Assembly (NCBI GenBank): GCA_000092065.1
Contig: CP000584.1
Length of the DNA: 64,000 nt
Direction: 5' to 3' (one strand)
DNA from: Ostreococcus lucimarinus
Lineage: Eukaryota
The notes under the pieces were generated by a model. That model was given only the letters and a program-made list of their open reading frames with translations. It made no database searches and was not told where the DNA came from. Each line of letters opens with the position of its first letter. Position 1 is the stretch's first letter. The position numbers and the translations under genes were made by a program. Of the stretch, positions 234 to 33,300 are shown piece by piece.

Positions 234-1679
234 ATGGCGCGCCGAACGCGACCGACCGAATGCGAATCGACGCGCGCACACGACGACGCGCGGCGCGCGC
301 GCGACGCGCGACGACCGAGGGTCCGAGCGACGCTTTCGAGCGACGCGCGGCGCGCGCGCGACGCGCGACGGCGACGCGCGGCGATGGCGCGCGCGATGAC
401 GACGCGGGGCGCGGTGGCGACGGGGCTCGACGGACGCCGCGGCGACGCGAAGACGCGCGCGCGTCGGCGCGGGGGGGGGCGAACGGCGACCGCGCGAGGC
501 GGGACGGACGCGCGGACGCGCGAGGGGGCGGGAGGGACGCGGGCGCGAGGTTGGGAGGGGACGCGCGCGAGCGCGCGGGACGCGCGGACGGGCGAGGACG
601 CGGCGCGACGGGCGAGGACGCGGGCGGTGATCGGGGCGCGCGAGCGGTGGGGCGATGGCGCGCGCGGGCGAGGGTGGGGCGCGCGCGTCGAGAGCGCGGC
701 GTCGGACGCCGCGGTGGGCGAGGGCGAGCGAAAGCCGACGAAGGGGAAGGGGGTGTCGAATTTGTTGAAGCGAACCGTGAGCTCTCTCTTCATGGTCGCC
801 GTGGGCGGGGTGGTGATCTTCGCCGGTGGGTGGCCATGGGCGCTGGCGATGGCGCTCTTCAACGGCGCGTCGTGCGTGGAATACTTTGGAATGGTGCGAG
901 AGATGAATAAGGAGCTTCCGTATCCGCCGCCGGAGTGGTGCATTAATTTATGCGTCGCGGCGTGCGCTTCGTTACCAGTTCTCCTGCACGCCACGGGGGG
1001 TAAGATGACGTCCATCATCGTCGCCACGGTGATTTCGTTCACCGCGATCTGCGCCGCGCTCATCGTGAACGAAGAGTCCCACTTTAACGAGTTTACGTCG
1101 TCTCTGTTTGGCTTGATTTATTGCGGCTTCTTGCCGACGTTTTGGGTCAAGCTTCGCGGCATGAGCGGCGTCTCGCTAGCCACTCCGGACAGTTTGCTTC
1201 ATCACTGGCCCGCTTGGCTCGGTGGTCCGGGGATTTGGACCCTCGGCCTCGCGGCGACGATCACCATCGTGCTCTCCGTCGTGAGCGCGGACGTCGGGGC
1301 GTACGCGTTTGGCAAAAACTTTGGTAAAAACAAACTCACGGCGGTAAGCCCGAATAAGACGGTCGAAGGCGCGATCGGCGGGTTGTTGGCTTGCGCGGGG
1401 ACGTGCGCGGCTTTGTTTTCAGTCATGGGGTGGCCTGGAACCGCGTGGCAAGGCGCGTTTTTGGGCGTCACGGTGTTCTTCACCTCCGTCTTTGGCGATC
1501 TCCTCGAGAGCGTGATGAAGAGAAATGCGACGATGAAGGACAGTGGGAATCTGATTCCGGGTCACGGCGGCTTGCTCGATCGATTTGATTCGTACATTTT
1601 CACCGGGAGTGTGACGTACTTCTTTGTCATCGCCGTCCTCGGCGGTTTCCGAAGAGTCTTTTCGGTTGGATATTACTAA
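234..1679 (+). CDS. Phosphatidate cytidylyltransferase (CDP-diacylglycerol synthase). The first ~150 codons of the ORF are Arg/Ala-rich low complexity and may be 5'UTR, so the true start is uncertain.
   Basis: C-terminal CDS-family signature ESVMKRNATMKDSGNLIPGHGGLLDRFDSYIF. Several hydrophobic TM segments start near nt 780. Long uninterrupted ORF. Confidence 0.75.
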   Translation: MARRTRPTECESTRAHDDARRARDARRPRVRATLSSDARRARDARRRRAAMARAMTTRGAVATGLDGRRGDAKTRARRRGGGRTATARGGTDARTREGAGGTRARGWEGTRASARDARTGEDAARRARTRAVIGARERWGDGARGRGWGARVESAASDAAVGEGERKPTKGKGVSNLLKRTVSSLFMVAVGGVVIFAGGWPWALAMALFNGASCVEYFGMVREMNKELPYPPPEWCINLCVAACASLPVLLHATGGKMTSIIVATVISFTAICAALIVNEESHFNEFTSSLFGLIYCGFLPTFWVKLRGMSGVSLATPDSLLHHWPAWLGGPGIWTLGLAATITIVLSVVSADVGAYAFGKNFGKNKLTAVSPNKTVEGAIGGLLACAGTCAALFSVMGWPGTAWQGAFLGVTVFFTSVFGDLLESVMKRNATMKDSGNLIPGHGGLLDRFDSYIFTGSVTYFFVIAVLGGFRRVFSVGYY

Positions 1680-1811: not shown

Positions 1812-2564
1812 CTATCCCTTTCGCGGCGTCGCCTCGATGACAAACGTGGTGCCGAGATGGTGCGTCGATTTTTCCACAATTTCCAACCCCGCGTCTTCGA
1901 TTAGCTTCAAAATGTCCCTATTCCAGTAACATCCCCATCGTCGCGCGTGTGCATCGGCGAAATGATCCAGAATATTACTCAACCAGCCGTACTCGCTTCG
2001 TCCGTGCTCGAGCAACAACACCCGACCGCCGTCTCGCTTAACGACGCGCTTCATCTCTCGCAACGCCCCCACCGCGTCCTCGTAACTGCACAACCCAAAC
2101 GTATCCACCACGGTATCCACGCTTCCCGTCTTCACATTCATCCTTTGCGCGTCTCCTCGCGTCACGATCGCCTCTCGCACCGTCGTCCCGCCGTCGCGCG
2201 TCCGCAGCTTCGCGCGCGCCTCCTCCACCATCCCATCGCACGCGTCCATCGCCAGCAGCGTGCGCACTTTTTTCGGGTCATAATACGAAAAGTTCCTTCC
2301 CGTACCGCACGCCACCTCCAACACGTCGCCGCGGGCGCCGTACGCGAGCGACGCGCGCATGTTTTCGATGCCGGACCAGTATTCACTGGACCTCACGGCG
2401 TCGTCAAAGGTTTTCGCCTCGCGATCGTACGCCGCGTCGCGCGCGCGCGCGTCGACGCGCTCGCAATCGCACGCGCGTCCACCGAGCGCGGCACCGTAGC
2501 CGACGACGACGCCCGCGCACGCGACGCCGGTCGCGAACGCGGAGGCGACGAGGCGAGGAAACAT
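1812..2564 (-). CDS. Class I SAM-dependent methyltransferase (Methyltransf_11 / METTL7-like) with a hydrophobic N-terminal anchor. Start taken at the internal Met MFPRLVASAF.
   Basis: Motif I VLEVACGTGRNF and downstream VDTVVDTFGLCS...GGRVLLLEHG. The ORF upstream of the chosen Met is Arg-rich junk. Confidence 0.7.
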   Translation of the reverse strand: MFPRLVASAFATGVACAGVVVGYGAALGGRACDCERVDARARDAAYDREAKTFDDAVRSSEYWSGIENMRASLAYGARGDVLEVACGTGRNFSYYDPKKVRTLLAMDACDGMVEEARAKLRTRDGGTTVREAIVTRGDAQRMNVKTGSVDTVVDTFGLCSYEDAVGALREMKRVVKRDGGRVLLLEHGRSEYGWLSNILDHFADAHARRWGCYWNRDILKLIEDAGLEIVEKSTHHLGTTFVIEATPRKG

Positions 2565-3017
2565 CCGCGCGACGACGTGTGACGCCAGAGCGCCGCGCGG
2601 CGTCGACGCGACGACGCGCGACGACGCGCGACGACGCGCGACGACGCGCGACGCGCGATGTCGCGCAAGCGACCGCGCGCGACGCGCGATACGAGCGACG
2701 ACGACGCGCATCTCTCGACGGTGGTTCAAAAATCATCTTTGCAAACGGCGCGCGCGACGACGCGAAACGGCGCGAAGCGGGCGCGACGAGACGCGACGGG
2801 ACGAAAAGTGCGCGCGCGGGGGAAGTCGTCGACGGCGCCGTTGGCGCTGGCGGTGACGCACGATCGCGTGCGGACGCTGGAGGTGCGATGATTAGACGAT
2901 TGGGATGGGCGTTCGAGGCGACGGCGGCGCGCGGGTGCCCGGTTTGACGCGAGAGAACGCGCGCGCGCGAAGAGACTGACGAAGGCGCGCTGGCGTCGAG
3001 ATCGCGGACAGGAGCTA

Positions 3018-6000
3018 GTGGAGGAGATGTGCGCGCGAAGCGGGCGACCGCAGCCGGTGTTGCGGAGGGTTGGGGACGAGGGCGCGTACGCGAACGCGCT
3101 GTTACGATCGACGTACGCGTTCGCGCCGGATTCTGCGCCAACGTTTTCGGGTAGAGGAGGCGAGCGTAGGGGTGGTGTGATGGATACCGTGCGCGCAGCG
3201 ATCGAGCATTCATTTCGCGCGTCGGCGAATCCGCGGAATGTGTTGTGTAAGGGGATGTGCCGACGCGTTGAGCGACGTGACGGCGGCGTTCGAGGCGCGC
3301 TTTTGAGCGGTTCGACAGAGGTGAGCGTGCGGTGCTCGACGAGCGCGTACGAGGCGTTCAAGTCACCGGTATGGGAAACATTTTGTGATAGAGTGGGAGA
3401 CGACATGTTTCTGCACATTTTATTGTACTGCAGCGTGTTTGTGAGAGTCGGTACGGACAGAGACACGCCGTTGTTGCAGATTTGTGGCTACCCGATGAAT
3501 GACTCCTCGCGCAAGCGGGCCATAACGACCGCGATGGCTACGAGTAAGACGCGAGCGGGAATTCGACGCGAACGGAGGGCGCGAAAGCGACGCCAAGATG
3601 AAGAGGCGGCAGAGAATTGCGCGTTGGAGACCGATTCCACCATGCTTGAGTCGAAGTGCATGTCCGAAAAGCCGCTCACCGCGAACCCATTCATTTCGCA
3701 CATCGACGTGAAGGAAGTCATTCGATTGAGCGACGTCTATCGTTGTTCACAAGATGTCTCAGTCGACGGGGATGGCGAGACTAGTGGACTGACGAGCGAG
3801 GAGGTGACTTTGTCGCCTGCCTCGACGGAATATCTGCAAACGTCGAGAAAGCGCTCGAAGTCGTACAGAAAGCCGAGTTGGCTTCGTAAGCGTGAAGCGC
3901 GGCTGAACTCAACGCATGCTCAGAGTTTGCGGACGCGAGAAGTGAAGCAAATGACCGCCGGCAACATCGTGAATCGACAAAAGAATGCGAGTTTGGGTAA
4001 CGAGGTGAAACTTGCTGACGAGGTCTTCGATCGAGGGGTGTTCATGTTTCGTTCAAGCTTCACGAAGAAACCAGGCTTGCCGGCGACGCATACTCTGCGA
4101 TCGATCGGCTTGGGCGTCCGCGCATCAAGGCGCCTTTACCTGACGATATTTAAGGCAAAAAAGCTTACGAAGGCTACATCGAAGCACAAGACAGATCGCG
4201 CTTTGCGGCAGGCAAAGAGTACGTATAGAATTCCGCAAAAGCACCGCGACACACTTTTACCGACGTTGCGGGCGATGTTGGACAAGGTTCGATGTTGCCC
4301 ATTCACGAACATCCTCAACAAGCACGCTCCCATGCCGCGTGAGCTAATGGTCTCCACGAAACGAGTCGGTGAATTGAGTCAAGCGTCGCTGTTATCTGCG
4401 TATACGGCACCACGAAGAGTAGCCGCCTTTGTTTGGGAAGTCATTGAGCGCCTCGTGCCCGTCGAACTCTTGGGGTCGGTCCAAACACGAAAAAGCCTGT
4501 ACGGTTGCATTCGCCGAATTGTGTCGTTGCGAAGATACGAGCGGTTTACTTTGCATGAAGTCATGCAAGGCATCCGAACGGCAGACTTCAAGTGTTTCAA
4601 GGCGAAAACGACCAATGCGAGTAACGCAGGACAGGTGGAGGCGAGTCAGCGGAGAATGGTCACCAAATGGATCAGCTGGCTCGTGCAAGAGATGGTCTTC
4701 CCAATCATACGATGTCATTTCTACGCCACGGATACGCAAACACACAAAAATAGGATATTCTTTTACCGGAAAGGGATTTGGTCTCGGCTCGTCACCGCCA
4801 CACTACAAAGCTTGGAAGAAACGTCGTTCAAGCGCCTCACGGCGAAGGAAGTGACAGCGATGATGGATAGATCGAATGCGTCCAACTTGGGGTTTTCGAA
4901 CATGCGATTTTTACCGAAAGGCTCGGGGTTACGACCTCTAGCGACGCTGAACAAACCGACGACCTTTGTCGTCAAGGGCGGCGGGAAGAATTCAATGCGG
5001 TGGTTGAAGAAATTCGATGCGATAAACAGACGGTTGAAAGACGTGCAGGATATTCTCCACCACGAGACAGTTCGAGATCCGAACGTCTTAGGCGCAGCCG
5101 TCGGAGATTATAAGGCGGCTCTTCTTCGTCTTGGACCGTGTCTACGCGCGATTCGTCGCCAAAAGTTACTTGGACGGCGTCCTCAGGCGTACATTCTCGC
5201 GACTGACATTAAAGGCGCTTTCGATAATCTTCCGCTCGAATCTCTCGAGCGCGTGGCCTTGGACCTAATCTCAAGCTCATCATATCAAACGCTTCATTAT
5301 GCCGTCGTGAAACAAAACGGTGAGGCAAAATATAAAAAGTTGGTGTCTTCCCTTCCGACCGCGGCGAAAGGCGAAAGAGTGCCGGGACCTCTCGTGACTG
5401 AAGCGCAGCGCGTTTCGAACACCGGCGGTGCGGCGATTCTTGGTAGAGAGAGCAGAAACTCGATCGTCATTGACGCAGGATTCGCTAAGGAAATTTCCGA
5501 TGAAAACATAGTGCCGTTATTGCGCGCACATCTACGAGAAAACATCATCTCTGCGCGCGGCAAGTTCTTGTTACAAACCGTCGGAATCCCGCAGGGTTCG
5601 ATTGTATCTCCGCTTTTGTGCAGCCTATTTTACGGCCACCTCGAACACGAGTATGGATTATTGAGCGGTTTCTGTGGCGAGCAATCAACCGTGTGTCGAT
5701 GGATGGACGACATGCTTCTCGTCACCACCGATCTTGATCGGGCCAAAGCGTTCGTCGACATGTGTAAGAAAGGTTTCGAGGCGCACGGCTGCACTCTAAA
5801 CACCACAAAAACGCTTTCAAACTTCGACCACGGAGAAGACGTACGACAAAGGACATTTGTGAACGCGGATGGGCGAAGTTACATCCCGTGGTGCGGTATA
5901 TTAATCGATTGCCTAACGCTAGAAATAATGGTGGACTACTCGAGGTACTCGGGAGAATTCGTTCGAGAGTCGATGAATCTACCGCTCGGGCGCAAGGCGT

Positions 6001-6497
6001 GGACGCGTCTACCCGAACGCATTTGTGGCTTTTTGAAGCCAAAATGTGCGGCTATATTTTTCGACGAGAGTATCAACAGCAAAGTCACCGTGCGCGTCAA
6101 CGTCTACCAGCTCTTCCTCATGGCGGCGATGAAAACACACAGCTACGTCGCTGCGACGAGCGCGATTCCGGGATGCGAGCAAATCTCATCGCTTGCACTT
6201 TATCGCGCGATCAAGCACGCCGTTCGTTTCGGACAAATATTGATACAGCGTCAGAGTAGCAGCGCGCGCGCGCACTGCAGTAGCGTCGGGAGACTGCCGG
6301 ACTCGCACGTTGAATTTCTCGCTATCCAAGCCTTCTTGAAAGTCCTTCAACAAAAGCAGACGCGATACAAGCGAGTAATTCAGCTATTGAACTCGCGACT
6401 CACCTCACAAGGCATGAAACGAACGTGCAGAAACGGTCTGCTCACACAAGCGATGGAACCATCGCGAAACACGATTTTCACACATATTAGATTTTAG
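3018..6497 (+). CDS. TERT: Telomerase reverse transcriptase (catalytic subunit), single exon.
   Basis: T motif WLVQEMVFPIIRCHFYATDT followed by RIFFYRKGIWSRL...MRFLPKGSGLRPLATLNKP. RT motif B' QGIPQGSIVSPLLCSLFYGHLE. Motif C RWMDDMLLVTTD. Motif E IPWCGILID. Collinear with human TERT. Confidence 0.9.
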   Translation: MEEMCARSGRPQPVLRRVGDEGAYANALLRSTYAFAPDSAPTFSGRGGERRGGVMDTVRAAIEHSFRASANPRNVLCKGMCRRVERRDGGVRGALLSGSTEVSVRCSTSAYEAFKSPVWETFCDRVGDDMFLHILLYCSVFVRVGTDRDTPLLQICGYPMNDSSRKRAITTAMATSKTRAGIRRERRARKRRQDEEAAENCALETDSTMLESKCMSEKPLTANPFISHIDVKEVIRLSDVYRCSQDVSVDGDGETSGLTSEEVTLSPASTEYLQTSRKRSKSYRKPSWLRKREARLNSTHAQSLRTREVKQMTAGNIVNRQKNASLGNEVKLADEVFDRGVFMFRSSFTKKPGLPATHTLRSIGLGVRASRRLYLTIFKAKKLTKATSKHKTDRALRQAKSTYRIPQKHRDTLLPTLRAMLDKVRCCPFTNILNKHAPMPRELMVSTKRVGELSQASLLSAYTAPRRVAAFVWEVIERLVPVELLGSVQTRKSLYGCIRRIVSLRRYERFTLHEVMQGIRTADFKCFKAKTTNASNAGQVEASQRRMVTKWISWLVQEMVFPIIRCHFYATDTQTHKNRIFFYRKGIWSRLVTATLQSLEETSFKRLTAKEVTAMMDRSNASNLGFSNMRFLPKGSGLRPLATLNKPTTFVVKGGGKNSMRWLKKFDAINRRLKDVQDILHHETVRDPNVLGAAVGDYKAALLRLGPCLRAIRRQKLLGRRPQAYILATDIKGAFDNLPLESLERVALDLISSSSYQTLHYAVVKQNGEAKYKKLVSSLPTAAKGERVPGPLVTEAQRVSNTGGAAILGRESRNSIVIDAGFAKEISDENIVPLLRAHLRENIISARGKFLLQTVGIPQGSIVSPLLCSLFYGHLEHEYGLLSGFCGEQSTVCRWMDDMLLVTTDLDRAKAFVDMCKKGFEAHGCTLNTTKTLSNFDHGEDVRQRTFVNADGRSYIPWCGILIDCLTLEIMVDYSRYSGEFVRESMNLPLGRKAWTRLPERICGFLKPKCAAIFFDESINSKVTVRVNVYQLFLMAAMKTHSYVAATSAIPGCEQISSLALYRAIKHAVRFGQILIQRQSSSARAHCSSVGRLPDSHVEFLAIQAFLKVLQQKQTRYKRVIQLLNSRLTSQGMKRTCRNGLLTQAMEPSRNTIFTHIRF

Positions 6498-6573
6498 GAA
6501 CTCTTTCATAGTCAAACAAACATCTCCTGTACTCATCCTTCTACTGTACTCAACAACAACAAATGTAAACATC

Positions 6574-6578
6574 GTCGT
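6574..6578 (+). promoter_or_regulatory. TGTAA candidate polyadenylation signal, ~77 nt after the TERT stop.
   Basis: TGTAA is the poly(A) signal in chlorophyte algae. Similar motifs occur after the stops at 1781, 11259, 51841 and 59679. Confidence 0.35.
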
Positions 6579-6664
6579 AAATTTTGATTCGTGGTTCGTC
6601 GTAGTCGTCGTCGAATCGATCGACGGTAAAAAACATTGCGAAAGCGTGATTCGCGGTGAAGCGC

Positions 6665-7489
6665 CTAGTAGGCGCGTTGTTCGCCTTCGTGGGCGAATCG
6701 ACAAGACTCACCGCGGTCGCAGCGCCCCTTTTGCCAGTCGAAGCACACGCCACGCGGGCGATCACCACCGCGGTCGCCACCGTAGCCGCGATCACGATCG
6801 CCGCCCCAGCGATCGCCGCCGCGGTTGCCACCGTAGCCGCGATCGCCGCCGCCGCGGTACCCGCCGCCGCCGCCGCCGCCGTCTTCAGAGTGCGCGAAGC
6901 GGCACGAGTCGCCTCGATCGCATCGGTTTTCTCTCCAAGCGTAGCACACACCTCGCGGGCGGTCTTCGCGAGCGTACGGACGATCATCCCGTCGGTCGTA
7001 CCCGCCTCGGCGATCGCCGCCTCGGCGGTCGTCGTATCCGCCGCCGCCTCGCCCTCGCATCTCATCCGGGTTCTTTCTTCGCTCGTTCGCGATCTCGCAT
7101 CGAACTTCCCGTCCCATGATGTCCATTCCGGTCGCCTTTTCGACCGCATCGTCCGCCTCACCCTGAATCGCGTACTTCACGAACGCCAATCCTCGCTTGC
7201 GTCCCGTCTCGCGATCCTTCGGCATGTACACGTCGAGCACGTTTCCGTACGCCTGGAACTTATCCCGGATGTCGTCCTCGTGCGCGTCGAACGAGATGTT
7301 TCGCACGAGCACGGAGACTCCCGGCAAGTCGCGCGGGTTCGGCGGTTCGTCTCGGACCGGCGGCGGCGGTGCCCCGCGGTCGCCGTCCCCGTGATCGGCG
7401 GCGCCGCCCTCATCGGCGGCGGGTTCGTCGGCGACGCGACGAGGGTTATCCTCGTCGATCTCGCGCTGTTCGTTATCTTCGTCGGACAT
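6665..7489 (-). CDS. RNA-binding protein with one RRM, a Gly/Arg-rich (RGG) region and two CCCH zinc fingers. Start taken at MSDEDNEQ.
   Basis: RRM segment VSVLVRNISFDAHEDDIRDKFQAYGNVLDVYMPKDRETGRKRGLAFVKY. Zinc-finger segments RGVCYAWRENRCDRGDSCRFAH and RGVCFDWQKGRCDRGESCRFAH. Confidence 0.7.
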   Translation of the reverse strand: MSDEDNEQREIDEDNPRRVADEPAADEGGAADHGDGDRGAPPPPVRDEPPNPRDLPGVSVLVRNISFDAHEDDIRDKFQAYGNVLDVYMPKDRETGRKRGLAFVKYAIQGEADDAVEKATGMDIMGREVRCEIANERRKNPDEMRGRGGGGYDDRRGGDRRGGYDRRDDRPYAREDRPRGVCYAWRENRCDRGDSCRFAHSEDGGGGGGGYRGGGDRGYGGNRGGDRWGGDRDRGYGGDRGGDRPRGVCFDWQKGRCDRGESCRFAHEGEQRAY

Positions 7490-7803: not shown

Positions 7804-9300
7804 TCAGAGGTGCATGGCTGAAGAAAAGTGAGGCGCCCAGCGCGATTGCTTGGCGGCGAGCTTAAGGGTGCGGAAAACTTCCGCATTGGCGGCCCAGAAA
7901 CTGACGGAATGTAACCCTAGACCGTTGGCTTTGGCGTAAGGCTTGACGACGTCTTCGCGAAACGCGCGAAGCTTGTGTCGAGGTACGCGCGGGCACAGGT
8001 GGTGCTCGGTTTGAAACTGTAAACCACCGTGGAACCAGTCGAGCCAGCGCGGGCAGTCGATGTCCAACGTCCCAGCGAGTTGCATGTTCACCCACTCGTC
8101 GTTTTCAGGTCGCCCTTCGAAGACGTCGCGCGAAAAATGCGAGAGGCAAATTTGCACGTGGATGACGCCGGCGACGGCGTGCGAGAGGAAGAAGAACGGC
8201 ACTTTGTGACCCACGGGTAACTGAGCGATGAGCGTGGTGAGCCACGTGGCGAACACACCAAGTGTTAAAAACTCCATCGCTCGGCTCCGCACGCGCTTCG
8301 CCTTGATCAAGAAGATCAACGTCTGCAAGTATAAGTTGATGCGAGCGACGGCCATAATTGGATAGAACGTGTAGTGCTGGAATCGAACGAGCGTCCTGGC
8401 GAGACGGTCGTACGTCATGCGTCTGCGGTGATACAGAGAGTACACCGAGCCAAAATATTTGTTGGAGACCGCGAACACGGGCATGTGCTGGATGTCGGGG
8501 TCGCATTCCAACGAGTTGCACGCGCAGTGGTGGACGTTGTGCGTCGCCATCCACCACGCGATGCCGACGCCGTTGAAGAGGTTTCCAACGCACCACCCGA
8601 TCATGGCGTCTTTTTTGCGATCATAAGTGATCGATGTGTGCCCAGCATCGTGGCCGATGAACATACTTTGCTGCCAAAACAAACCGAGCAAGACGGCGCC
8701 GAACATGTGCGTCTTGAAACCGGCGCCCGACGACAACACGCACGCCAACACGCCGCCGAAAAGCACGACCAATCTCGCGATGATGAAGGCGTAATCCGTG
8801 AGATCGCTCTTCAACAACTTCTCACTACCCTCCATCGCGTCCCTCATCCGACGAAACGCCTTTAAATGCGTCGGCGGCGCCGCGCTCTCGTCCACCAAGC
8901 GCCCGATTCGAAGCGTCTCCAAGCGCGCCAGCGCGCGCCGCTCCCCCCCGTGATACGCCATGAACGCGTCCGTCGCGTCTCTCCCCGCGTACTGCTCCAG
9001 AATCGTGCTCCCCCCCGGATGTTTCTCGACCCAAGACGTCGCGTCGTACACCCCATCGCCCACGACGAGCCAACAATCGCTCCCGACGTCGTGCGAGCGC
9101 ACGTCGGCGCGCGCGTACGTCGCCTCGCCTCGCCGCGTCTCCCCCCCGACGCCCGTCCCGACGTCCCGCGCCGCGCTCGCGTCGCCGCGATTCGCCCGTC
9201 GCGCGCCCTCGCCCTCCCGCGCCGTCGCGCGCGTCGCGCTCGCGTCCCCGCGTCGTCGCGCGCGCGCGCGACGCGAGAGGTCCACGCCGTCCCGCGGCAT
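7804..9300 (-). CDS. Front-end membrane desaturase (delta6/delta8 type) with an N-terminal cytochrome b5 domain.
   Basis: Cytochrome b5 motif HPGGSTILEQYAGRDATDAF. His boxes HDAGH, HNVHH and the front-end-specific QTEHHL (Gln replacing His). Confidence 0.8.
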   Translation of the reverse strand: MPRDGVDLSRRARARRRGDASATRATAREGEGARRANRGDASAARDVGTGVGGETRRGEATYARADVRSHDVGSDCWLVVGDGVYDATSWVEKHPGGSTILEQYAGRDATDAFMAYHGGERRALARLETLRIGRLVDESAAPPTHLKAFRRMRDAMEGSEKLLKSDLTDYAFIIARLVVLFGGVLACVLSSGAGFKTHMFGAVLLGLFWQQSMFIGHDAGHTSITYDRKKDAMIGWCVGNLFNGVGIAWWMATHNVHHCACNSLECDPDIQHMPVFAVSNKYFGSVYSLYHRRRMTYDRLARTLVRFQHYTFYPIMAVARINLYLQTLIFLIKAKRVRSRAMEFLTLGVFATWLTTLIAQLPVGHKVPFFFLSHAVAGVIHVQICLSHFSRDVFEGRPENDEWVNMQLAGTLDIDCPRWLDWFHGGLQFQTEHHLCPRVPRHKLRAFREDVVKPYAKANGLGLHSVSFWAANAEVFRTLKLAAKQSRWAPHFSSAMHL

Positions 9301-25497: not shown

Positions 25498-26625
25498 TTA
25501 ATCATCCATAGTGTTGTACATGGAGAAGTCTGGCATCGATGCCGATGATACCAGACCCTTCTTCATTTTTCGCATAGATGGCGGCGCGCGCAAGCCCTTG
25601 TCAAGGCCAAGCTCAGCGATTTTATCGCGTTCTTCTTCGGCTTCGCGTGCGTCGTCGTCGTCCGACTGGCCCGCGGCTTCTCGAATCTTTGATAAATCCG
25701 GCACAGAGCTAACCTTGACGAACTTGCCCTTGACTCGCGGGCGGTTGTCAGCGCATGCTTTGCGCGATTGATACCGAATCACCTTGTTGAAGTTTCGATT
25801 CTTCCTCTTTTCCTTCCATCGTTTCAATCGCTCGAGACGCGTCTGCGGCTGCGGTAACCCGGCGTACGTATCCGATCCCGAAGGTGGGCCTTCTGGAATC
25901 GAGCGTAACGCGTCAGCCATCGCAGAATGTCCATTCGCATCCCCTGCGCCGCTCGATGCGACCGTCTGATTGTCCAAATCGCTCTCGGGTTCGCGTTTGA
26001 CAGCCACCGCGCTCAGCTTCCCCGCGAGAGATTCAAAACCCATATCGCTAGACTCAGGCGATGGCGAGCCGAACGCGCCGTACGATGGATTCAATTCTAA
26101 AAACCGCACCGCAGAATCGTCCAAAATTGGACCTAAAAAGCCGCTCGACGAGGCATACTCGCCGACCCGACGTAACGCCTCGATTTCGCTCTTCGACATC
26201 CCCACCGAGTCGCTATACTTGCTTCCCGATCGCTCCCCGTCGATTTCTCGATTCACCACCCCATCCTTCGCCGCATCTTCATCATCGAGCGGGTCCCTCA
26301 AGAAGCTCTCCGGATCGATCCCATCAGCGTCAAGCTCGCCCAAATTCTCGTCCCAAAACGCTCCGTCCAACGTTTCCACCGGAAACGACGACGACGGCAT
26401 CATGGGATTACTCAAATACTCATCGCATATCCCGATCACATCATCCGTCGTCACCTCAACGTCATCGCCGTCGCCGTACGCATCGCTCATCCGTCTCGAA
26501 TCCGCATCCTCCGCGCCGTGCGCGCCGACCCCTCGCCCGTTCGTCCCGAGCGCCGTGCGCTCGTGCTTACTCGCGATCGCGTTCGCCGCGTGCACGCGCG
26601 CATCGCACGCATCGCACAGGTACGC
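25498..26625 (-). CDS. CONSTANS-like B-box/CCT protein, exon 2 (second half of the B-box, acidic middle region, C-terminal CCT domain).
   Basis: AYLCDACDARVHAANAIASKHERT (B-box C-terminal half). CCT domain RLERLKRWKEKRKNRNFNKVIRYQSRKACADNRPRVKGKFVK. Confidence 0.8.
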   Translation of the reverse strand, partial: AYLCDACDARVHAANAIASKHERTALGTNGRGVGAHGAEDADSRRMSDAYGDGDDVEVTTDDVIGICDEYLSNPMMPSSSFPVETLDGAFWDENLGELDADGIDPESFLRDPLDDEDAAKDGVVNREIDGERSGSKYSDSVGMSKSEIEALRRVGEYASSSGFLGPILDDSAVRFLELNPSYGAFGSPSPESSDMGFESLAGKLSAVAVKREPESDLDNQTVASSGAGDANGHSAMADALRSIPEGPPSGSDTYAGLPQPQTRLERLKRWKEKRKNRNFNKVIRYQSRKACADNRPRVKGKFVKVSSVPDLSKIREAAGQSDDDDAREAEEERDKIAELGLDKGLRAPPSMRKMKKGLVSSASMPDFSMYNTMDD

Positions 26626-27320: not shown

Positions 27321-30300
27321 TTGGCGGCGATGCGCGCCCGGTTCGCGCGCGGCGCGTCGATGTCGGCGCTTCTGCTCGCGCTGTGCGCTTTGGCGTCGCT
27401 CTTAGGCGTCGCTCGGGGCGGTGGTTCGCCGTCGCCGTCCCCCGTGCACTGTTCGGCGAGGTGGATCGACGTCAACAAAGGGGGCTGCCCAAGCTGCGGA
27501 CCAGGCACGTATAGTAAGCGATACCAAATCGATCGCGATCCCGCGTACGATGGACGACGGTGTCCTCATGTCAACGGGCATGTGTCTTATGGACATGATT
27601 GCGAGGCACCGCCATGTCCGCCGCCGCCGCCATCGCCGCCGCCGCCGTCGCCACCGCCGCCGCCGCCGGGACAGTTTGTTCCCGTGCAGGTATCCATCAA
27701 CGATCCCGTGCCGAGAGTGTCAGATGCGTACGACTTTCACATTCTCACCTCACATCCTTCGTGCGATTCACAAAACGATTGTTTTGAGAGTCACATCGAG
27801 ACGGACGTGAGCGAGCATCACGTCGGACTCAGGTGCGACGTCACCGTGCAAAAGAAGGACCAAGTTTGTGCGACATTCGGTCGTCACATGCCTTGCAGGC
27901 TGTGGAATGACTTTTATCCAACAACTTTAACCCTCACGGATGAGCATGGTGACATCGTCGAAGGCGATTACGTCATTGAGTATGAATGCTACTTTGAACT
28001 CGCAAACGGCGAGCTCGTACCTGAGCCGACCAAGGTGAAGAAGACGCTGCACGAGTTCAGCGTATCCAAAGGGTGCGATTTGAAAATGAATTTGAATCGA
28101 GATTCCAAAGCAGAGCTCGCGGCGTATCTCCTCAGTGGCGCCGATGAATTCAATATCGCTGACTGCTCGAGTTTGAAGAGTATTTACGCCGCGAAGGAGG
28201 CCGTGTTCCGTATTTTCGATTCAAACCCGACAGATGGCCGACTCGATCACGAAGAAATCCTCATCGGTGTTGAGGCACACAGCATGGATACACAGATAGT
28301 GAATCATTGGAAGGACATCGTCGACGCTGAGGGTGGCGATGGACTGTTCCTCACACTTTCGAACTTCATGTCGGCAGACATCGCGCCTCGCGGTTGTCAA
28401 TCCGGCGCCGGTGACGTCGTGACGTTCACGGAGGCGACGTATCCAACGAGTGATCCTGGACGTGAAACGGGATCCAGGCAATGCGGAGAGATGGCGGGAT
28501 CTATGAAGACCACGTGGTCGTTTCCTCGATCAATGCAACTCGGCGATTGGTCGTGCGTATACATCGACGGGCTTTTGTACAGTCAATTGCTCGCCCAAAC
28601 GAGCCGAAACGCCGTATCGATGCAGAACAGCGTGACAGATATTCGCCCTGTCATTGGCTCTTTTCATGATGCAGAGCAATCTCTCGCTGCGCATTTCACG
28701 TTCGCAGGCGTGTCAAACGCAAGGCTGATTTCTTCAGAATCGCCGCGGGCGGATGGCCAAGAAGTGGTTCCAACCCTCTCCATCGATGATACGTATACAG
28801 GTAGTCTGCGAGTCTTCACGGCTTCTCAACACGGTAAACACGGGGCGTGCCTGAACAGCTGCCAAGGTTGTACCTTCCATTCGTACAAGTACATTGGGGA
28901 ACCGTTCAAGAATGATTTTGCCGTGTCGATGCAAATATTCATTCCTACACAGCTTTCGAGCAATTCTGGCTTTCGGAAGAAGTCGGAACCTCTCATGAGC
29001 TTCACTTCAGATGCATCTGGTAGTATGCAGCACAGCATCAAGTTACGATTGGGCACGGCACTCTCGAAGTTTTCACTTCAATTTATACATGAAAAAGTAA
29101 ACAGCGTGACGGGTCATCGAGATGAGCTATCAGAGCCCATTCCTCTGGGTGCGTTTGGACGCTGGACGTCAATTGGATTTTCTTTCCACCCAAAAGATGG
29201 TCTCACGTTGTACAGGTTCAGCGTTGAGGGAGGTAGGGTAACACATGAAATCAAGGTGCCGAGCAATAACGATGAGTGGAAATCGAGACTGCGAGACACG
29301 TTGCATTTGATGCACCGTCGTGAATTTTTCAAAGAGAACCGAATAGAATACGACGATCTTCGCGTGTACACTGGCCGAGTAAAGAACAACACATTCATAG
29401 ACGCGTATAAGTGCGACGCGTTGGGTGCTCAGTGTGCACCTCGAGCACACGCAACGCCAAACTCACGTCGCGTCGTATGTGTCATGCTGGATGTCCACGA
29501 CAGTAGTGGAGGAGACGCCCGTGCGCCGTATTCCTGCACCGGTGCCCTGTACTACGACGGCGGCGCCATTGAAGTGCGCGCGAAAATGGATCTCACTGGA
29601 GTCGCATTCGAATTCCGCGACACGGCTTGGCACGAATCATCTTTTGAAATCTTGCGACGCACGCACGATCCAAGTGGCGATAACGCGTTTGATACAGTCG
29701 TACTCGTTGACGGTGGTTTGAACGGCTGTGCGTCGATGTTTTCGTCGATTACGTATCTCGACCGAGAGGCTGGTCAGCAGCCCAACTCTCGCTGGCAGTA
29801 CAAGATCAAAACAAAGACGGACGATGTCGATGTAAGCTTTTTGTCGCTCACTACTCATTTTAAAACGCCTTGGATTGGTCAAATTGTGGGCGAAGTGATG
29901 GCCGGTAAGTCGGTTGTTCCTGTTGGCGAAGTCCGCATTTGCGCAGACTTCGTGAAGCCCAACGGTACTTTTCTGATGTATCGCAGTCACAATCACTCTA
30001 ATCTGGCTTTGCACATGCCCGTCGTTCACACATCTAATCTCACTATCTCAGCAGAACAACAGGCGCATCGAGCTACGGACGGCTTACACTTGAAGCCTGA
30101 CTCGATTCGTGTCGCAAGAGGACAGTATTTGCGCGTCAACCTCGACTATTGGAGCGCAATACAAGAGGTCGAAGTGTGCACCGCAACCGGAGAGAACAAT
30201 TTCAGAACTTTCGTGCGGGAGTTCGATCCGGGATACTCTGTGAATCACGGTCACGAGTGCAAATTACGAGAAACTAACGCAACCCAAACTTTCAGCGCAT

Positions 30301-33300
30301 CGCGCGTGACTTGCTTCTTCTTCACCTGTCGGGGCTCAAAGCTTACGACATTGCATGGTCAGTTCGTAACCGCAGCCGTCGAAGAAGGCGACGACGTGAG
30401 AATGACGCAAATTCGTGTTGTTGGTCAGCGTGGCAGATGCACGTTCACGGCGATAAGTGATGACGATGGGCGCTATGCAATCGATGTACTCGATCGCTCC
30501 GGGAACGTCCCCGTCAAGGCGAATATGCTCATCGGCGCGTATAAGGAAGAAGTTTTTGGTGAAGAATTCGAAGTTCCCCTCCTGGATACGAGCGATTCAG
30601 ATGGCGATGATGATTCGCTAAACGTTCCGACGCGAGTGTTACTCGTACTTCGTCGAAAGAACAGTTCGCTTGCGGCGCGTCTCGGGCATGAAGTCCCGGA
30701 TTACAGCAGCTCCTACTACGACGGCGAAACGCATCAGTATCTGGATCAACATGGATATAGTCCACCGTATGGCAGCTCCTACTACGACGGCGAAACGCAT
30801 CAGTATCCGGATCAACATGGATACAGTCCACCGTTCGGCAACACGCCATATGTGCACACTATTTACGATAACGCCTACGATTCAGGCGTTCCTGCCGCCA
30901 AAGTAGAGTTCCAAAGTTTGACGAATTTACGTCTGGAAAACACAACTCTTATGAAGAAAGATGGAGTTGCTGATGGTTGGAATGCAGGGGGGTCCTCGAA
31001 TCAGTCAATGTTTAATGTCACGGGTCGTTTTACTGGAATGGACGCGGTTGAGGGTATCAGGGTCGAATGCTCCTGCGATGATGGCGAATATGTCGTTGGT
31101 TTGAGCTACGCAGAGCACATAGCTAACTTTTCCAAAGCAGCGACCGAATTTGCCATTCACTGTCGTGGTAAAGGCTATGAGCCAGCCATCATTTCAGGTG
31201 GTCGCTCTTACGCAAATTCAAATAACTATCGGATGGCCATGGAGACGAGACCATCGCATCACATGACGGATCTATACGATGTGTACCAGTCAACTGACAT
31301 CACATCTTCGCCACCCATCTCCACGGCGAATGATTTCTCATATGCAGCAGCGCAGAGGCGACTACTGGCTCCAACGAGTTCGTACCCTGCAAGAAGCCCG
31401 ACGTCAAACGAGTATCCAACGACGAGCCCGACGCCAAGCAGTCAATTATTGAACTCTTATCCTCAGTCGTATGATGCGCAAACGAATGAGTATCCTCAGT
31501 CGTATGATGCGACGACGTCTACTTATTTTCCACCCTACCACATCGATGACTATCTCGATCGAGGCTATCGTTCAAACATGTGTATGAAGAAGACATTCAC
31601 CATTAAACTTACACGCAGTGGGCGTGTTTTGTTTTATGAAACGCAAGGCCATTGGCTGTACGATCATCCGGTGCAGCATGAAAATTTTCACCATACTCAG
31701 ACGTGGCAAACTGGTGGACAGTCGCCGCCGTACGGCTACACGGAGCAAACGCCACCGTACGGCTACGCGGAGCAAACGCCGCCGTACTCTGCGCGCGACA
31801 AGTCTTCCCTGGGCGCACATGCCGACGTTTCGCACACGGGCCAAGCTTTGCATGAGTACCATGAACCTGCTCAACTCATAGTACCGGTCGCGTACGCAGA
31901 AAGAGCACACAGCCCCTTGTTTGTGCGAATGGTGGTAATTTCACAAAATGTGACGCTGAGCGACGCCGACATACGTTGGACAGTGCCGACTCCCTCACCG
32001 CCGCCATCACCGCCACCATCACCACCGCCACCGTCACCACCGCCATCACCACCACCACCGCCGCCGCCGCCGTCCCCGCCGCCGCCGCCGCCTTCACCGC
32101 CGCCGCCGCCGCCGTCGCCACCGCCGTCGCCGCCGTCGCCGCCGCCGCCGCCCCCTGCGAAAGCTATCAGAGGTAACAGCGTCGATTGGACGGTGAAGAA
32201 GAACGTCGATAGTACCTCATCGGGGGGAGTTTTCTTGGTCGGATGGAATTCGAAGGGTGCTGCAGTGAGCGCGCGGGCGATCCATTCGTCCTCAAATGTC
32301 ACTCGAGGGATATCTGCAACTTTGGAACGTGGGCCTTATTCAATGGGTCACACTTGCGTAGGTCTGACGAGCTCTGCGGATCGCGAGACGGTTGATAGTT
32401 CTAACATCGATTTCGCCATGTGTTGCGAATGGGGTTATCTTGGTGTTTTTGAAAAGGGATCGCGCAAATGGCGTGCTAGTGGAAACTTGCAGGATAGTTG
32501 TTCACAAACGGACACGCTACAAATCGTCGTGAACGATGGGGATGGCGCGATCGAGTACTTCAAGAATCGGCGTCGCGTGTATACCAGTCAACGGACACCT
32601 CAGTATCCGCTTCACGCAGACGCTGAAGTCTATTTCGGAAGACTGGGTGAAGTTGTTTGGATTGAACGAATTCCATCACCGCCTCCTTCTCCTCCTCCAC
32701 CGCCTTCACCGCCGCCGCCACCATCACCGCCCCCGCCGCCCCCGCCTTCACCGCCGCCATTGCATCAGTTTACATCCGCGGATGTAGATCCACGCATCAA
32801 CACGGCCGCGGCTATTCCGCACATCACACGCGAGGAGTTCGAGGATTTCATCGAAAATATAACAGGCTTCCCTAATTTGGGACACGCCATCGTGATGGAT
32901 GAAATCTGGCAGTATATCGACGACGACGGGGACGGTGTTTTGAGTGAGATTGAGTTCCAGCACGCGTCTTACAAAATGCACACTCACGAGCTGTACGTTG
33001 ATCCCATCATCGTCTACCCCAGCCGCTCGATAAAACATCGCTACGGCTTCAAGGTTTCCAAATCAGTCAGGAGTGATTCTAGTGCCTGCGTGGGTGACGC
33101 CGTATCTTACGACGGTCCCTCTGCGTCGCTTGGTTCGTGCGAATTGACTTCGGAGAAGGAGCCTGTAGAGATTACATTATGGGGAAATGGTTTTGCTGGC
33201 ACACCGTCGACGACCACTATTTACAGCTTGGGAGCTTCCAAGAATGGAGACACTACGTACATCGCGAGCGCGCGCGTTTCTGTCGGCACCTGGTTCACGT

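What the first reader, a model, noticed from the sequence alone, without database searches (positions are those of the whole stretch)
3018..6497. Single-exon telomerase reverse transcriptase gene
All TERT-specific motifs (T, 1, 2, A, B', C, D, E) are present in order in one 1159-codon exon. This is a high-value functional locus because it defines telomere maintenance in this alga. The start codon and any N-terminal TEN-domain boundary are uncertain. The gene converges tail-to-tail on an RRM/CCCH RNA-binding gene with only ~170 bp between the stops.
Basis: partly seen in the sequence, partly recalled or inferred. Interest (0 to 1): 0.5.

Follow-up and report, generated by a model that had tools for sequence, protein, structure and literature searches.

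The report
Ostreococcus telomerase gene, actually two exons
This is the real telomerase catalytic-subunit (TERT) gene of the green picoalga Ostreococcus lucimarinus and is already in GenBank, but it has a short first exon and a 129-base intron upstream of the long reading frame, so it is not single-exon.

Summary
The ORF 3018..6497 (+) exists. It is a TERT by every sequence test: Pfam Telomerase_RBD 3.9e-36, TERT_C, RVT_1, and human TERT in the PDB at 9e-83.

Translated from ATG 3027 it is identical to GenBank ACH81296.1, 'telomerase reverse transcriptase [Ostreococcus sp. lucimarinus]'. The locus is therefore already known.

The tail-to-tail RRM/CCCH neighbour is confirmed, with 167 bp between the stops. 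The gene order is conserved in related species.

'Single-exon' is not supported. Upstream lies a 75-codon exon 1 (ATG 2658..2882). It ends in the conserved peptide PLALAVTHDRVRTLE. A GT..AG intron follows (2883..3011, 129 nt, in-frame TGA), and the long ORF is exon 2, starting at 3012.

- Seven orthologous loci share this layout. Introns are 98-141 nt and two shift the frame.
- Four of the seven lineages have no Met at the position of ATG 3027.
- The RNA-seq-guided O. tauri model XP_022838809.1 has exactly this structure.
- The spliced N-terminus aligns without a gap across the junction to other TERTs and completes the TEN domain (human TERT residues 5-181).

The corrected product is 1236 aa. 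No telomerase RNA candidate lies in the window. No transcript data were available. Interest is low: an ordinary known gene with a gene-model correction.

The parts
2658..2882 (+). TERT exon 1 (75 codons): MSRKRPR..., a basic low-complexity stretch, then the conserved block PLALAVTHDRVRTLE, which is the first conserved segment of the TEN domain.
   Evidence: It is the only in-frame ATG between the upstream stop and the donor site. The block is conserved in 7 orthologous loci with synonymous codon changes: the Arg codon appears as CGG, CGA, CGC and CGT. It is homologous to the N-termini of other TERTs. The O. tauri RefSeq model has the equivalent exon.
2883..3011 (+). Intron, 129 nt: 5' splice site ctggag|GTGCGA, 3' splice site gacAG|gagcta, in-frame TGA at 2889.
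   Evidence: GT..AG introns of 98-141 nt sit at the same position in all 7 loci, with stops in every read-through frame. In L002 and L006 the length modulo 3 is 1, so the two exons are in different frames. The body of the intron is unalignable apart from the splice signals and one motif.
2934..2945 (+). Conserved intronic element GGTGCCCGGTTT (consensus GGTGCCYGGTTT). Function unknown.
   Evidence: It is the only conserved block inside the intron across the 7 loci. It has one exact copy in the 64-kb window. RNAalifold pairs it with exon 1, but without compensatory changes.
2974..2982 (+). Branch-point-like GACTGACGA. The candidate branch A is at 2979, 32 nt before the 3' splice site.
   Evidence: (A/T)(C/T)TGACG is conserved in all 7 introns. 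Matching it to the CTRAY branch consensus rests on general knowledge.
3012..6497 (+). TERT exon 2 (1161 codons plus stop TAG 6495-6497). It begins ELVEEMCARSG.
   Evidence: The block (E/D)(L/T)(V/I)E..C starts directly after a YAG in all loci.
2829..3521 (+). Coding region of the TEN (GQ) domain, split by the intron: aa ~58-245 of the 1236-aa product. It contains NVLCKGM, W..F.DRVGD and LLQICGYP, with an invariant Gln that aligns with the Gln of human TERT 'AYQVCG'.
   Evidence: The N-terminal profile hits the TEN region of human TERT: residues 33-189 at 1.3e-35 without exon 1, and residues 5-181 at 3e-39 with it. It also hits the Tetrahymena TEN crystal structure 2b2a at 2.5e-7 and 1.1e-6. 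hhalign of the Ostreococcus-only profile against human TERT gives E 8.7e-6.
3522..4016 (+). Basic, poorly conserved linker with indels between species.
   Evidence: Alignment A1. There is no PDB or Pfam match here.
4017..4817 (+). Telomerase RNA-binding domain (TRBD), including the CP-like and QFP regions and the T motif (4719-4790, FYATDTQTHKNRIFFYRKGIWSRL).
   Evidence: Pfam Telomerase_RBD 3.9e-36 on nt 4419-4811. Medaka and Takifugu TRBD structures 4o26 and 4lmo score 2e-22 and 1e-18. The profile alignment reaches human TERT residue 381.
4818..5909 (+). Reverse-transcriptase domain: motifs 1 (4902-4940), 2 (5022-5066), A (5187-5231), the IFD insertion, B' (5568-5636), C (5694-5726, WMDDM), D (5784-5813) and E (5880-5909).
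   Evidence: The catalytic Asp residues are invariant in the 11 orthologues.
5910..6494 (+). C-terminal extension (thumb).
   Evidence: Pfam TERT_C 6.7e-15 on nt 6015-6389. The human CTE structure 5ugw scores 6.5e-9.
6498..6664 (.). 167-bp AT-richer spacer between the convergent stop codons. It presumably holds both 3' UTRs.
6665..7489 (-). Convergent neighbour: a 274-aa protein with one RRM, RGG-rich spacers and two CCCH fingers.
   Evidence: Pfam RRM_1 3.6e-16 and zf-CCCH. It shows only generic RRM similarity in the PDB. The same convergent position is kept in L001-L006 and L008.
1812..2564 (-). Divergent upstream neighbour: an Ubie/Methyltransf_11-type methyltransferase. Its likely start is ATG 2564 (MFPRLVAS...), which leaves 93 bp (2565-2657) between the two start codons.
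   Evidence: Pfam. The start is inferred from the annotated O. tauri orthologue MALRVAVSAIAAS....

Best explanation
The locus is the single, functional TERT gene of Ostreococcus lucimarinus. TERT is the catalytic protein of telomerase. Together with a still unidentified telomerase RNA, it copies a short RNA template onto chromosome 3' ends to make the TTTAGGG-type telomere repeats of this alga.

The gene has two exons:
- exon 1: 2658..2882
- intron: 2883..3011 (129 nt)
- exon 2: 3012..6497

The 1236-aa product has the full canonical TERT architecture: TEN, linker, TRBD, RT with IFD, and CTE.

Shown here: family membership, the domain order, the conserved catalytic residues, the conserved exon-intron structure, and conserved synteny. 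Inferred: that the intron is spliced in O. lucimarinus, that translation starts at ATG 2658, and the enzymatic activity with its repeat product.
For: TERT identity:
- Pfam Telomerase_RBD, TERT_C and RVT_1.
- Human TERT structures at 9.4e-83 over aa 456-1150, with all motifs aligned; the profile reaches 1.5e-93.
- An exhaustive HMMER search found 866 relatives below 1e-30, many of them colinear from end to end.
- The product from ATG 3027 is exactly ACH81296.1.

TEN domain.

Two-exon structure:
- The conserved block PL.L...H..VRTLE, followed by GTG(C/A/G)G, is present in 7 lineages.
- The introns are 98-141 nt, with a conserved branch-like CTGACG and a YAG acceptor.
- Every read-through frame contains stops, and two lineages are frame-shifted.
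- The residue at the position of ATG 3027 is Val, Ile or Leu in 4 of the 7 lineages. L002 has no in-frame ATG at all ahead of the conserved block.
- The O. tauri model XP_022838809.1 / CEF97648.1 joins TLE|ELVED across a 98-nt intron, and the spliced translation reproduces it exactly. That annotation was guided by RNA-seq junctions, and 89% of its introns were validated (PMC4378021).
- BLASTP of the spliced N-terminus crosses the junction without a gap against P0011 (1e-13) and P0079 (7e-22).
- Fourteen distant TERTs align into the exon-1 block.

Orthology: the gene order CTP_transf_1(+) / methyltransferase(-) / TERT(+) / RRM-CCCH(-) is kept.

Telomere repeat type: PMC3318450 and PMC8287931 Table 1.
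Against: There is no transcript evidence for O. lucimarinus itself.
- A protein search with the spliced N-terminus found no junction-containing protein.
- A degenerate junction pattern scanned against JGI metagenome contigs gave only one chance hit, in a 70% GC contig that is not a TERT.

The first ~57 residues of exon 1 are low-complexity and poorly conserved, so ATG 2658 is supported mainly by being the only ATG in frame and by similar basic N-termini in the orthologues.

The intron length (129) is a multiple of 3 in this species, so frame alone does not prove an intron here; the TGA at 2889 does.

The AlphaFold model was too poor to use (pLDDT 41.8). The GenBank depositor chose the 1156-aa form.
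Confidence: 0.9

Rival explanations
1. The gene is single-exon as the first reader and GenBank ACH81296.1 have it. Translation starts at ATG 3027 and gives a 1156-aa TERT. The upstream conserved block would then be a non-coding promoter or 5'-UTR element.
For: ATG 3027 opens an uninterrupted frame to 6497. The deposited proteins ACH81296.1 and ACH81297.1 use this start. No spliced O. lucimarinus transcript was found.
Against: - The Met is not conserved: it is Val, Ile or Leu in 4 of 7 lineages, and L002 has no start codon in frame.
- The upstream block varies at synonymous positions and keeps its peptide.
- It is homologous to the N-terminal segment of other TERTs and joins exon 2 colinearly.
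- The later RNA-seq-guided O. tauri model includes the exon.
- Without it, the TEN domain lacks the segment that matches human TERT residues ~5-32.
Confidence: 0.06
2. Both forms exist. The intron is sometimes retained, which terminates the exon-1 frame at TGA 2889. Translation of TERT then depends on reinitiation at ATG 3027 or is shut off. This would make the 5' intron, with its conserved GGTGCCYGGTTT element, a regulatory switch for telomerase.
For: A 12-nt element is conserved inside an otherwise unalignable intron and has one exact copy in the window. RNAalifold proposes that it pairs with exon 1 around the 5' splice site. The in-frame ATG 3027 is present in 3 of 7 lineages.
Against: The proposed helix has no compensatory changes, and its covariation term is unfavourable at +1.86. 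The internal Met is not conserved. No expression data were available. The element could equally be a transcription-factor site, since it lies about 280 bp from the start codon.
Confidence: 0.1
3. It is a generic or retroelement reverse transcriptase (LINE-like or Penelope-like) rather than telomerase.
For: RVT_1 alone would fit many retroelements.
Against: - The TRBD with T motif, the TERT_C thumb and the TEN domain are all present.
- Apart from one marginal group II intron maturase (6me0, E 7.9e-4) in the profile search, every PDB hit is a TERT.
- It occurs once in the window, in conserved synteny, and no endonuclease or gag-like domain was found.
Confidence: 0.01

Closest known systems
GenBank ACH81296.1, telomerase reverse transcriptase [Ostreococcus sp. 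'lucimarinus'] (1156 aa)
   Same: Identical, residue for residue, to the translation of window 3027..6494 (exact look-up).
   Different: It starts at the internal Met. It lacks the 80 N-terminal residues (exon 1 plus ELVEE) proposed here. The 1236-aa spliced product is not in the 15-billion-protein collection.
Ostreococcus tauri TERT, RefSeq XP_022838809.1 / CEF97648.1 (1216 aa, chromosome record CAID01000004.2)
   Same: It is the orthologue: the O. tauri 1150-aa form ACH81297.1 is 68-69% identical. It has the same two-exon structure, the same junction TLE|ELVE, the same splice signals and intronic motif, and the same flanking genes.
   Different: Exon 1 has 61 codons rather than 75, and the intron is 98 nt rather than 129. 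The low-complexity N-terminus is unrelated in sequence.
Human TERT (PDB 7qxa, 7trd, 7bg9)
   Same: It has the same domain order and all RT, T, CP/QFP and CTE motifs. The catalytic Asp residues of motifs A and C align. The TEN domain matches residues 5-181 through a profile.
   Different: The linker is unrelated. The alga has about 57 extra low-complexity residues ahead of the TEN core. A direct Ostreococcus-only comparison reaches only residues ~30-176. From general knowledge, the human gene has 16 exons.
Tetrahymena thermophila TERT (PDB 6d6v; TEN domain 2b2a)
   Same: Its TRBD-RT region is detected directly at 8.9e-24 (3.7e-35 with the profile) and its TEN domain at 2.5e-7.
   Different: It is much more divergent, and no claim is made here about ciliate-specific accessory contacts.

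Membership tests
TERT (telomerase reverse transcriptase) | RT fingers and palm with motifs 1, 2, A, B', C, D and E, and the catalytic Asp triad (one in A, two in C). | tested here: met
   All the motifs align to human TERT. D of ATDIKGAFD and DD of WMDDM are invariant in 11 orthologues. Pfam RVT_1 4e-14.
TERT (telomerase reverse transcriptase) | A telomerase-specific T motif and an RNA-binding domain (CP/QFP) N-terminal to the RT. | tested here: met
   Pfam Telomerase_RBD 3.9e-36, covering 131 of 133 profile positions. FYATDTQTHKNRIFFYRKGIWSRL aligns with human [24 protein letters not shown]. TRBD crystal structures 4o26 and 4lmo match.
TERT (telomerase reverse transcriptase) | A TERT-type C-terminal extension (thumb). 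| tested here: met
   Pfam TERT_C 6.7e-15. 5ugw scores 6.5e-9.
TERT (telomerase reverse transcriptase) | An N-terminal TEN (GQ) domain. | tested here: met
   A profile of the N-terminus plus distant TERT N-termini hits human TEN at 3e-39 (residues 5-181) and Tetrahymena TEN 2b2a at 1e-6. The Ostreococcus-only hhalign gives E 8.7e-6. Invariant residues are the G of NVL..G, the W, the G of RIGD, and Q..G. The domain is complete only if exon 1 is spliced in.
TERT (telomerase reverse transcriptase) | An insertion in the fingers domain (IFD) between motifs A and B'. | tested here: met
   About 112 residues separate motif A (aa 721-735 of the 1156-aa form) from B' (848-870). They align colinearly with the human IFD region.
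TERT (telomerase reverse transcriptase) | A folded TRBD-RT-CTE ring with TEN, as in solved structures. | tested here: inconclusive
   The AlphaFold2 model from 11 sequences reached only pLDDT 41.8 and pTM 0.29. No fold search was attempted.
TERT (telomerase reverse transcriptase) | A cellular gene at a stable locus, not a mobile element. | tested here: met
   It occurs once in the window. The same four-gene neighbourhood is kept in 7 lineages down to 57% protein identity. Genome-wide copy number was not tested.
TERT (telomerase reverse transcriptase) | Association with a telomerase RNA and synthesis of telomere repeats. | not testable with these tools
   No telomerase RNA lies in the window. 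Rfam gave 0 hits. There is no run of 10 nt or more of (CCCTAAA)n, and the three 9-mers found equal the chance expectation of 3.4. PMC8287931 lists 6 TR-like loci in O. lucimarinus, none with TR homology.

The most novel reading that the evidence does not exclude
The short 5' intron could be a conserved regulatory device for telomerase in Ostreococcus. It carries a TERT-specific invariant element, GGTGCCYGGTTT. If the intron is retained, the frame stops after 77 codons, leaving either no TERT or, by reinitiation at ATG 3027, a TERT lacking the first TEN segment. Splicing of this intron could therefore set telomerase dosage or processivity, for example across the cell cycle.
Probability: 0.08. 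Interest if true: 0.4.

Novelty: already known. Interest (0 to 1): 0.15.

Why it matters
TERT is the expected telomere-maintenance enzyme, and finding it in Ostreococcus says nothing new. The protein was deposited years ago, and the sister species has a curated model.

The useful result is practical. The O. lucimarinus entry ACH81296.1, and any 'single-exon' annotation, is N-terminally truncated by 80 residues and lacks the first conserved segment of the TEN domain. In other telomerases (general knowledge) this domain is needed for repeat-addition processivity and recruitment. Anyone expressing this TERT to reconstitute algal telomerase, or to fish for the still unidentified Ostreococcus telomerase RNA, should use the 1236-aa spliced form.

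Tried and rejected
1. AlphaFold2 of the 1156-aa form with the 11-sequence alignment gave pLDDT 41.8. It was unusable, so no fold search was run.

2. The search for a spliced transcript or protein failed.
   - The spliced N-terminus retrieved only an uninformative 214-aa fragment.
   - The degenerate junction pattern in JGI metagenome contigs gave one chance hit, in a 70% GC contig that is not a TERT.

3. No telomerase RNA was found in the window: Rfam at gathering threshold gave 0 hits, and the template-permutation scan gave only chance 9-mers inside coding regions.

4. The idea that the TERT intron hosts a C/D snoRNA was rejected. C-box-like strings occur in only some species, at non-homologous positions (inspection of the introns).

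5. A conserved RNA helix between exon 1 and the intronic element has no covariation support.

6. The idea that the RRM/CCCH neighbour is telomerase-specific was rejected. It shows only generic RRM similarity.

7. A methyltransferase start at ATG 2711, which would overlap exon 1 by 54 nt, was rejected in favour of ATG 2564 by comparison with the annotated O. tauri orthologue.

8. No paper mentioning ACH81296 was found.
Full report
**Observation**

The ORF listing shows an uninterrupted + strand frame 3018..6497. The 1159 codons are counted from a mechanical GTG. The first ATG is 3027 and the upstream in-frame stop is TGA 2889.

Pfam gives Telomerase_RBD 3.9e-36, TERT_C 6.7e-15 and RVT_1 4e-14. 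phmmer against the PDB gives human TERT (7qxa and others) at 9.4e-83 over aa 456-1150. Every other hit is also a TERT.

Motifs T, 1, 2, A, B', C, D and E lie in order at 4719-5909. They align residue for residue with the human motifs, including the motif A Asp and the motif C Asp-Asp.

The minus-strand neighbour 6665..7489 has an RRM and two CCCH fingers. Its stop lies 167 bp from the TERT stop.

**Identity of the organism and prior knowledge**

The closest proteins are ten full-length, colinear orthologues at 57-99% identity. One is named 'telomerase reverse transcriptase [Ostreococcus tauri]'.

An exact-sequence look-up shows that the translation from ATG 3027 is GenBank ACH81296.1, 'telomerase reverse transcriptase [Ostreococcus sp. 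lucimarinus]'. The window is therefore O. lucimarinus, and the gene is already deposited under this name.

Ostreococcus has Arabidopsis-type TTTAGGG telomeres (PMC3318450; CCCTAAA is listed for O. lucimarinus in PMC8287931 Table 1).

**The N-terminus and the TEN domain**

With the ORF alone, similarity to human TEN is weak: aa 96-162 against human 113-177, i-Evalue 0.058.

An exhaustive profile search found 3205 relatives, 866 of them below 1e-30. A profile of the first 175 residues then hit the N-termini of 86 distant TERTs.

The alignment shows the classical GQ-motif residues as invariant: NVL..G, W..LL.RIGD, Q..G. As a profile it matches the human TEN domain (residues 33-189, 1.3e-35) and the Tetrahymena TEN crystal structure 2b2a (2.5e-7).

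However, the alignment starts at human residue 33. The other TERTs carry 30-50 more N-terminal residues, which suggested that something was missing.

**The missing piece is an upstream exon**

Translating the region upstream of the ORF in the window and in orthologous contigs gave a peptide conserved in every lineage:
- window: PLALAVTHDRVRTLE
- L001: PLALAATHARVRTLE
- L002: PLVLTAVHDHVRTLE
- L004: PLVLTATHARVRTLE
- L005: PLALAVTHDRVRTLE
- L006: PLALAATHARVRTLE

In each case it is followed at once by GTG(C/A/G)G.

Downstream, the conserved exon-2 block (E/D)(L/T)(V/I)E..C(A/D) begins directly after a YAG. The sequence in between is 99-141 nt and contains stops in every read-through. In L002 and L006 its length is 112 nt, so the two coding blocks are in different frames.

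The DNA alignment shows the following:
- synonymous variation in the exon-1 block (the Arg codon is CGG, CGA, CGC or CGT; the Leu codon is CTG, CTC or TTG);
- an unalignable intron body;
- a conserved (A/T)(C/T)TGACG about 30 nt before the acceptor, which looks like a branch point. Matching it to the CTRAY branch consensus is general knowledge.

The residue at the position of ATG 3027 is Met in only three of seven lineages and Val, Ile or Leu in the others. L002 has no in-frame ATG at all before the conserved block. A single-ORF gene is therefore impossible there.

**Independent confirmation from O. tauri**

The O. tauri cluster holds two forms: ACH81297.1 (1150 aa, internal Met) and XP_022838809.1 / CEF97648.1 (1216 aa).

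The longer form begins MASAIQ...PPLALVVQHARVRTLE|ELVEDMCAKSG. On the genome record CAID01000004.2 the gene spans 3749 nt. Removing a 98-nt GT..AG intron at the homologous position reproduces the protein exactly.

That annotation was guided by RNA-seq junctions, and 89% of its introns were validated (PMC4378021). Whether this particular intron was among them I could not check.

**Homology across the junction**

The spliced O. lucimarinus N-terminus aligns by BLASTP without a gap across residues 75|76. It matches P0011 (PPVLRSAYPRIATLEQTIRDACAHLGR, 1e-13) and P0079 (7e-22, starting in the basic patch).

With a spliced profile, 14 distant TERTs align into the exon-1 block. Alignment A3 shows the widespread motif (V/I)P..L...(Y/F)..V.TLE.... 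The A3 profile now matches human TERT from residue 5 to 181 (3e-39).

An Ostreococcus-only hhalign against human TEN is significant (8.7e-6) but covers only residues ~30-176. The link between the exon-1 block and the human N-terminus is therefore transitive, through other TERTs.

**Gene model in the window**

- Exon 1 is 2658..2882. ATG 2658 is the only in-frame ATG after the upstream stop. The N-terminus MSRKRPR resembles MSRAKRPRR in L006 and the basic N-termini of other TERTs.
- The intron is 2883..3011.
- Exon 2 is 3012..6497.
- The product is 1236 aa. This exact sequence is absent from the 15-billion-protein collection.

Colinearity with the O. tauri two-exon product, and the lack of lineage-specific insertions, argue against further introns.

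By comparison with O. tauri, the divergent methyltransferase most likely starts at ATG 2564. That leaves 93 bp between the two start codons.

**What it does**

By membership in a very well characterised family, the protein is the catalytic subunit of telomerase. The TRBD and CTE hold the telomerase RNA, the RT palm copies its template, and the TEN domain supports repeat-addition processivity. These roles come from established knowledge of TERT and were not tested here.

The RNA partner is not in the window and was not identified in O. lucimarinus by Fajkus et al. 2021.

**Limits**

- No O. lucimarinus transcript data were accessible, and searches for a spliced protein or a junction sequence failed.
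- The AlphaFold model was unusable.
- The conserved intronic element GGTGCCYGGTTT has one exact copy in the window. It has no explanation, and a proposed pairing with exon 1 lacks covariation.

**Verdict**

This is a real, ordinary, already known TERT gene. The corrected model is two exons and 1236 aa with a complete TEN domain. The novelty is only a gene-model correction for this species.

Noticed in passing
window 27330-39371 (+): A giant uninterrupted ORF of 4013 codons. It has the lowest GC3 in the window (0.556, against 0.75-0.90 for most genes) and no Pfam domain above threshold, only a sub-threshold EF-hand_7. It accounts for the low-GC stretch at 28-38 kb.
   Followed up: partly
window 3027-6497; L001 6001-9492; L002 6001-9381: TERT has an unusually low GC3 for this genome: 0.61 here, second lowest of about 37 ORFs. 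The same dip relative to neighbours is seen in two orthologous loci (0.64 vs 0.71-0.82, and 0.60 vs 0.62-0.66). Weak codon bias in a lowly expressed gene is a plausible reason, but it was not tested.
   Followed up: partly
window 2934-2945 (inside the TERT intron); the same motif in L001, L002, L004, L005, L006 and L008: A 12-nt element, GGTGCCYGGTTT, is conserved in an otherwise unalignable intron across 7 lineages. It has one exact copy in the 64-kb window. Its function is unknown.
   Followed up: partly
window 2594-2708: A degenerate 10-bp tandem array (CGCGCGACGA, about 11.6 copies, 74% matches). It fills most of the 93-bp divergent spacer between the methyltransferase and TERT start codons and runs into the first ~17 codons of TERT exon 1.
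   Followed up: no
window 25498-26490 (-): A 330-aa ORF with a CCT motif (PF06203, 2.9e-18) and low GC3 (0.636). It may be a CONSTANS/TOC1-family-like regulator.
   Followed up: no
window 234-1679 (+), 1812-2564 (-), 2658-6497 (+), 6665-7489 (-), 7804-9300 (-): The block CDP-diglyceride synthase-like (CTP_transf_1) / methyltransferase / TERT / RRM-CCCH is syntenic in all Ostreococcus-like loci examined. The next gene differs: Cyt-b5 + FA_desaturase here and in L005 and L006, but FA_desaturase_2 in L001 and in O. tauri L008.
   Followed up: partly
L002 6001 and L005 283 (proteins P0010, P0005, P0003, P0008): Several metagenome-derived 'TERT proteins' in the public collection begin with a Met that is really a GTG, CTG or TTG codon chosen by a prokaryotic gene caller. 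Small separate ORFs called just upstream (L002 5610-5909, L004 2653-2907, L005 1-213) are in fact TERT exon 1 plus intron read-through.
   Followed up: yes
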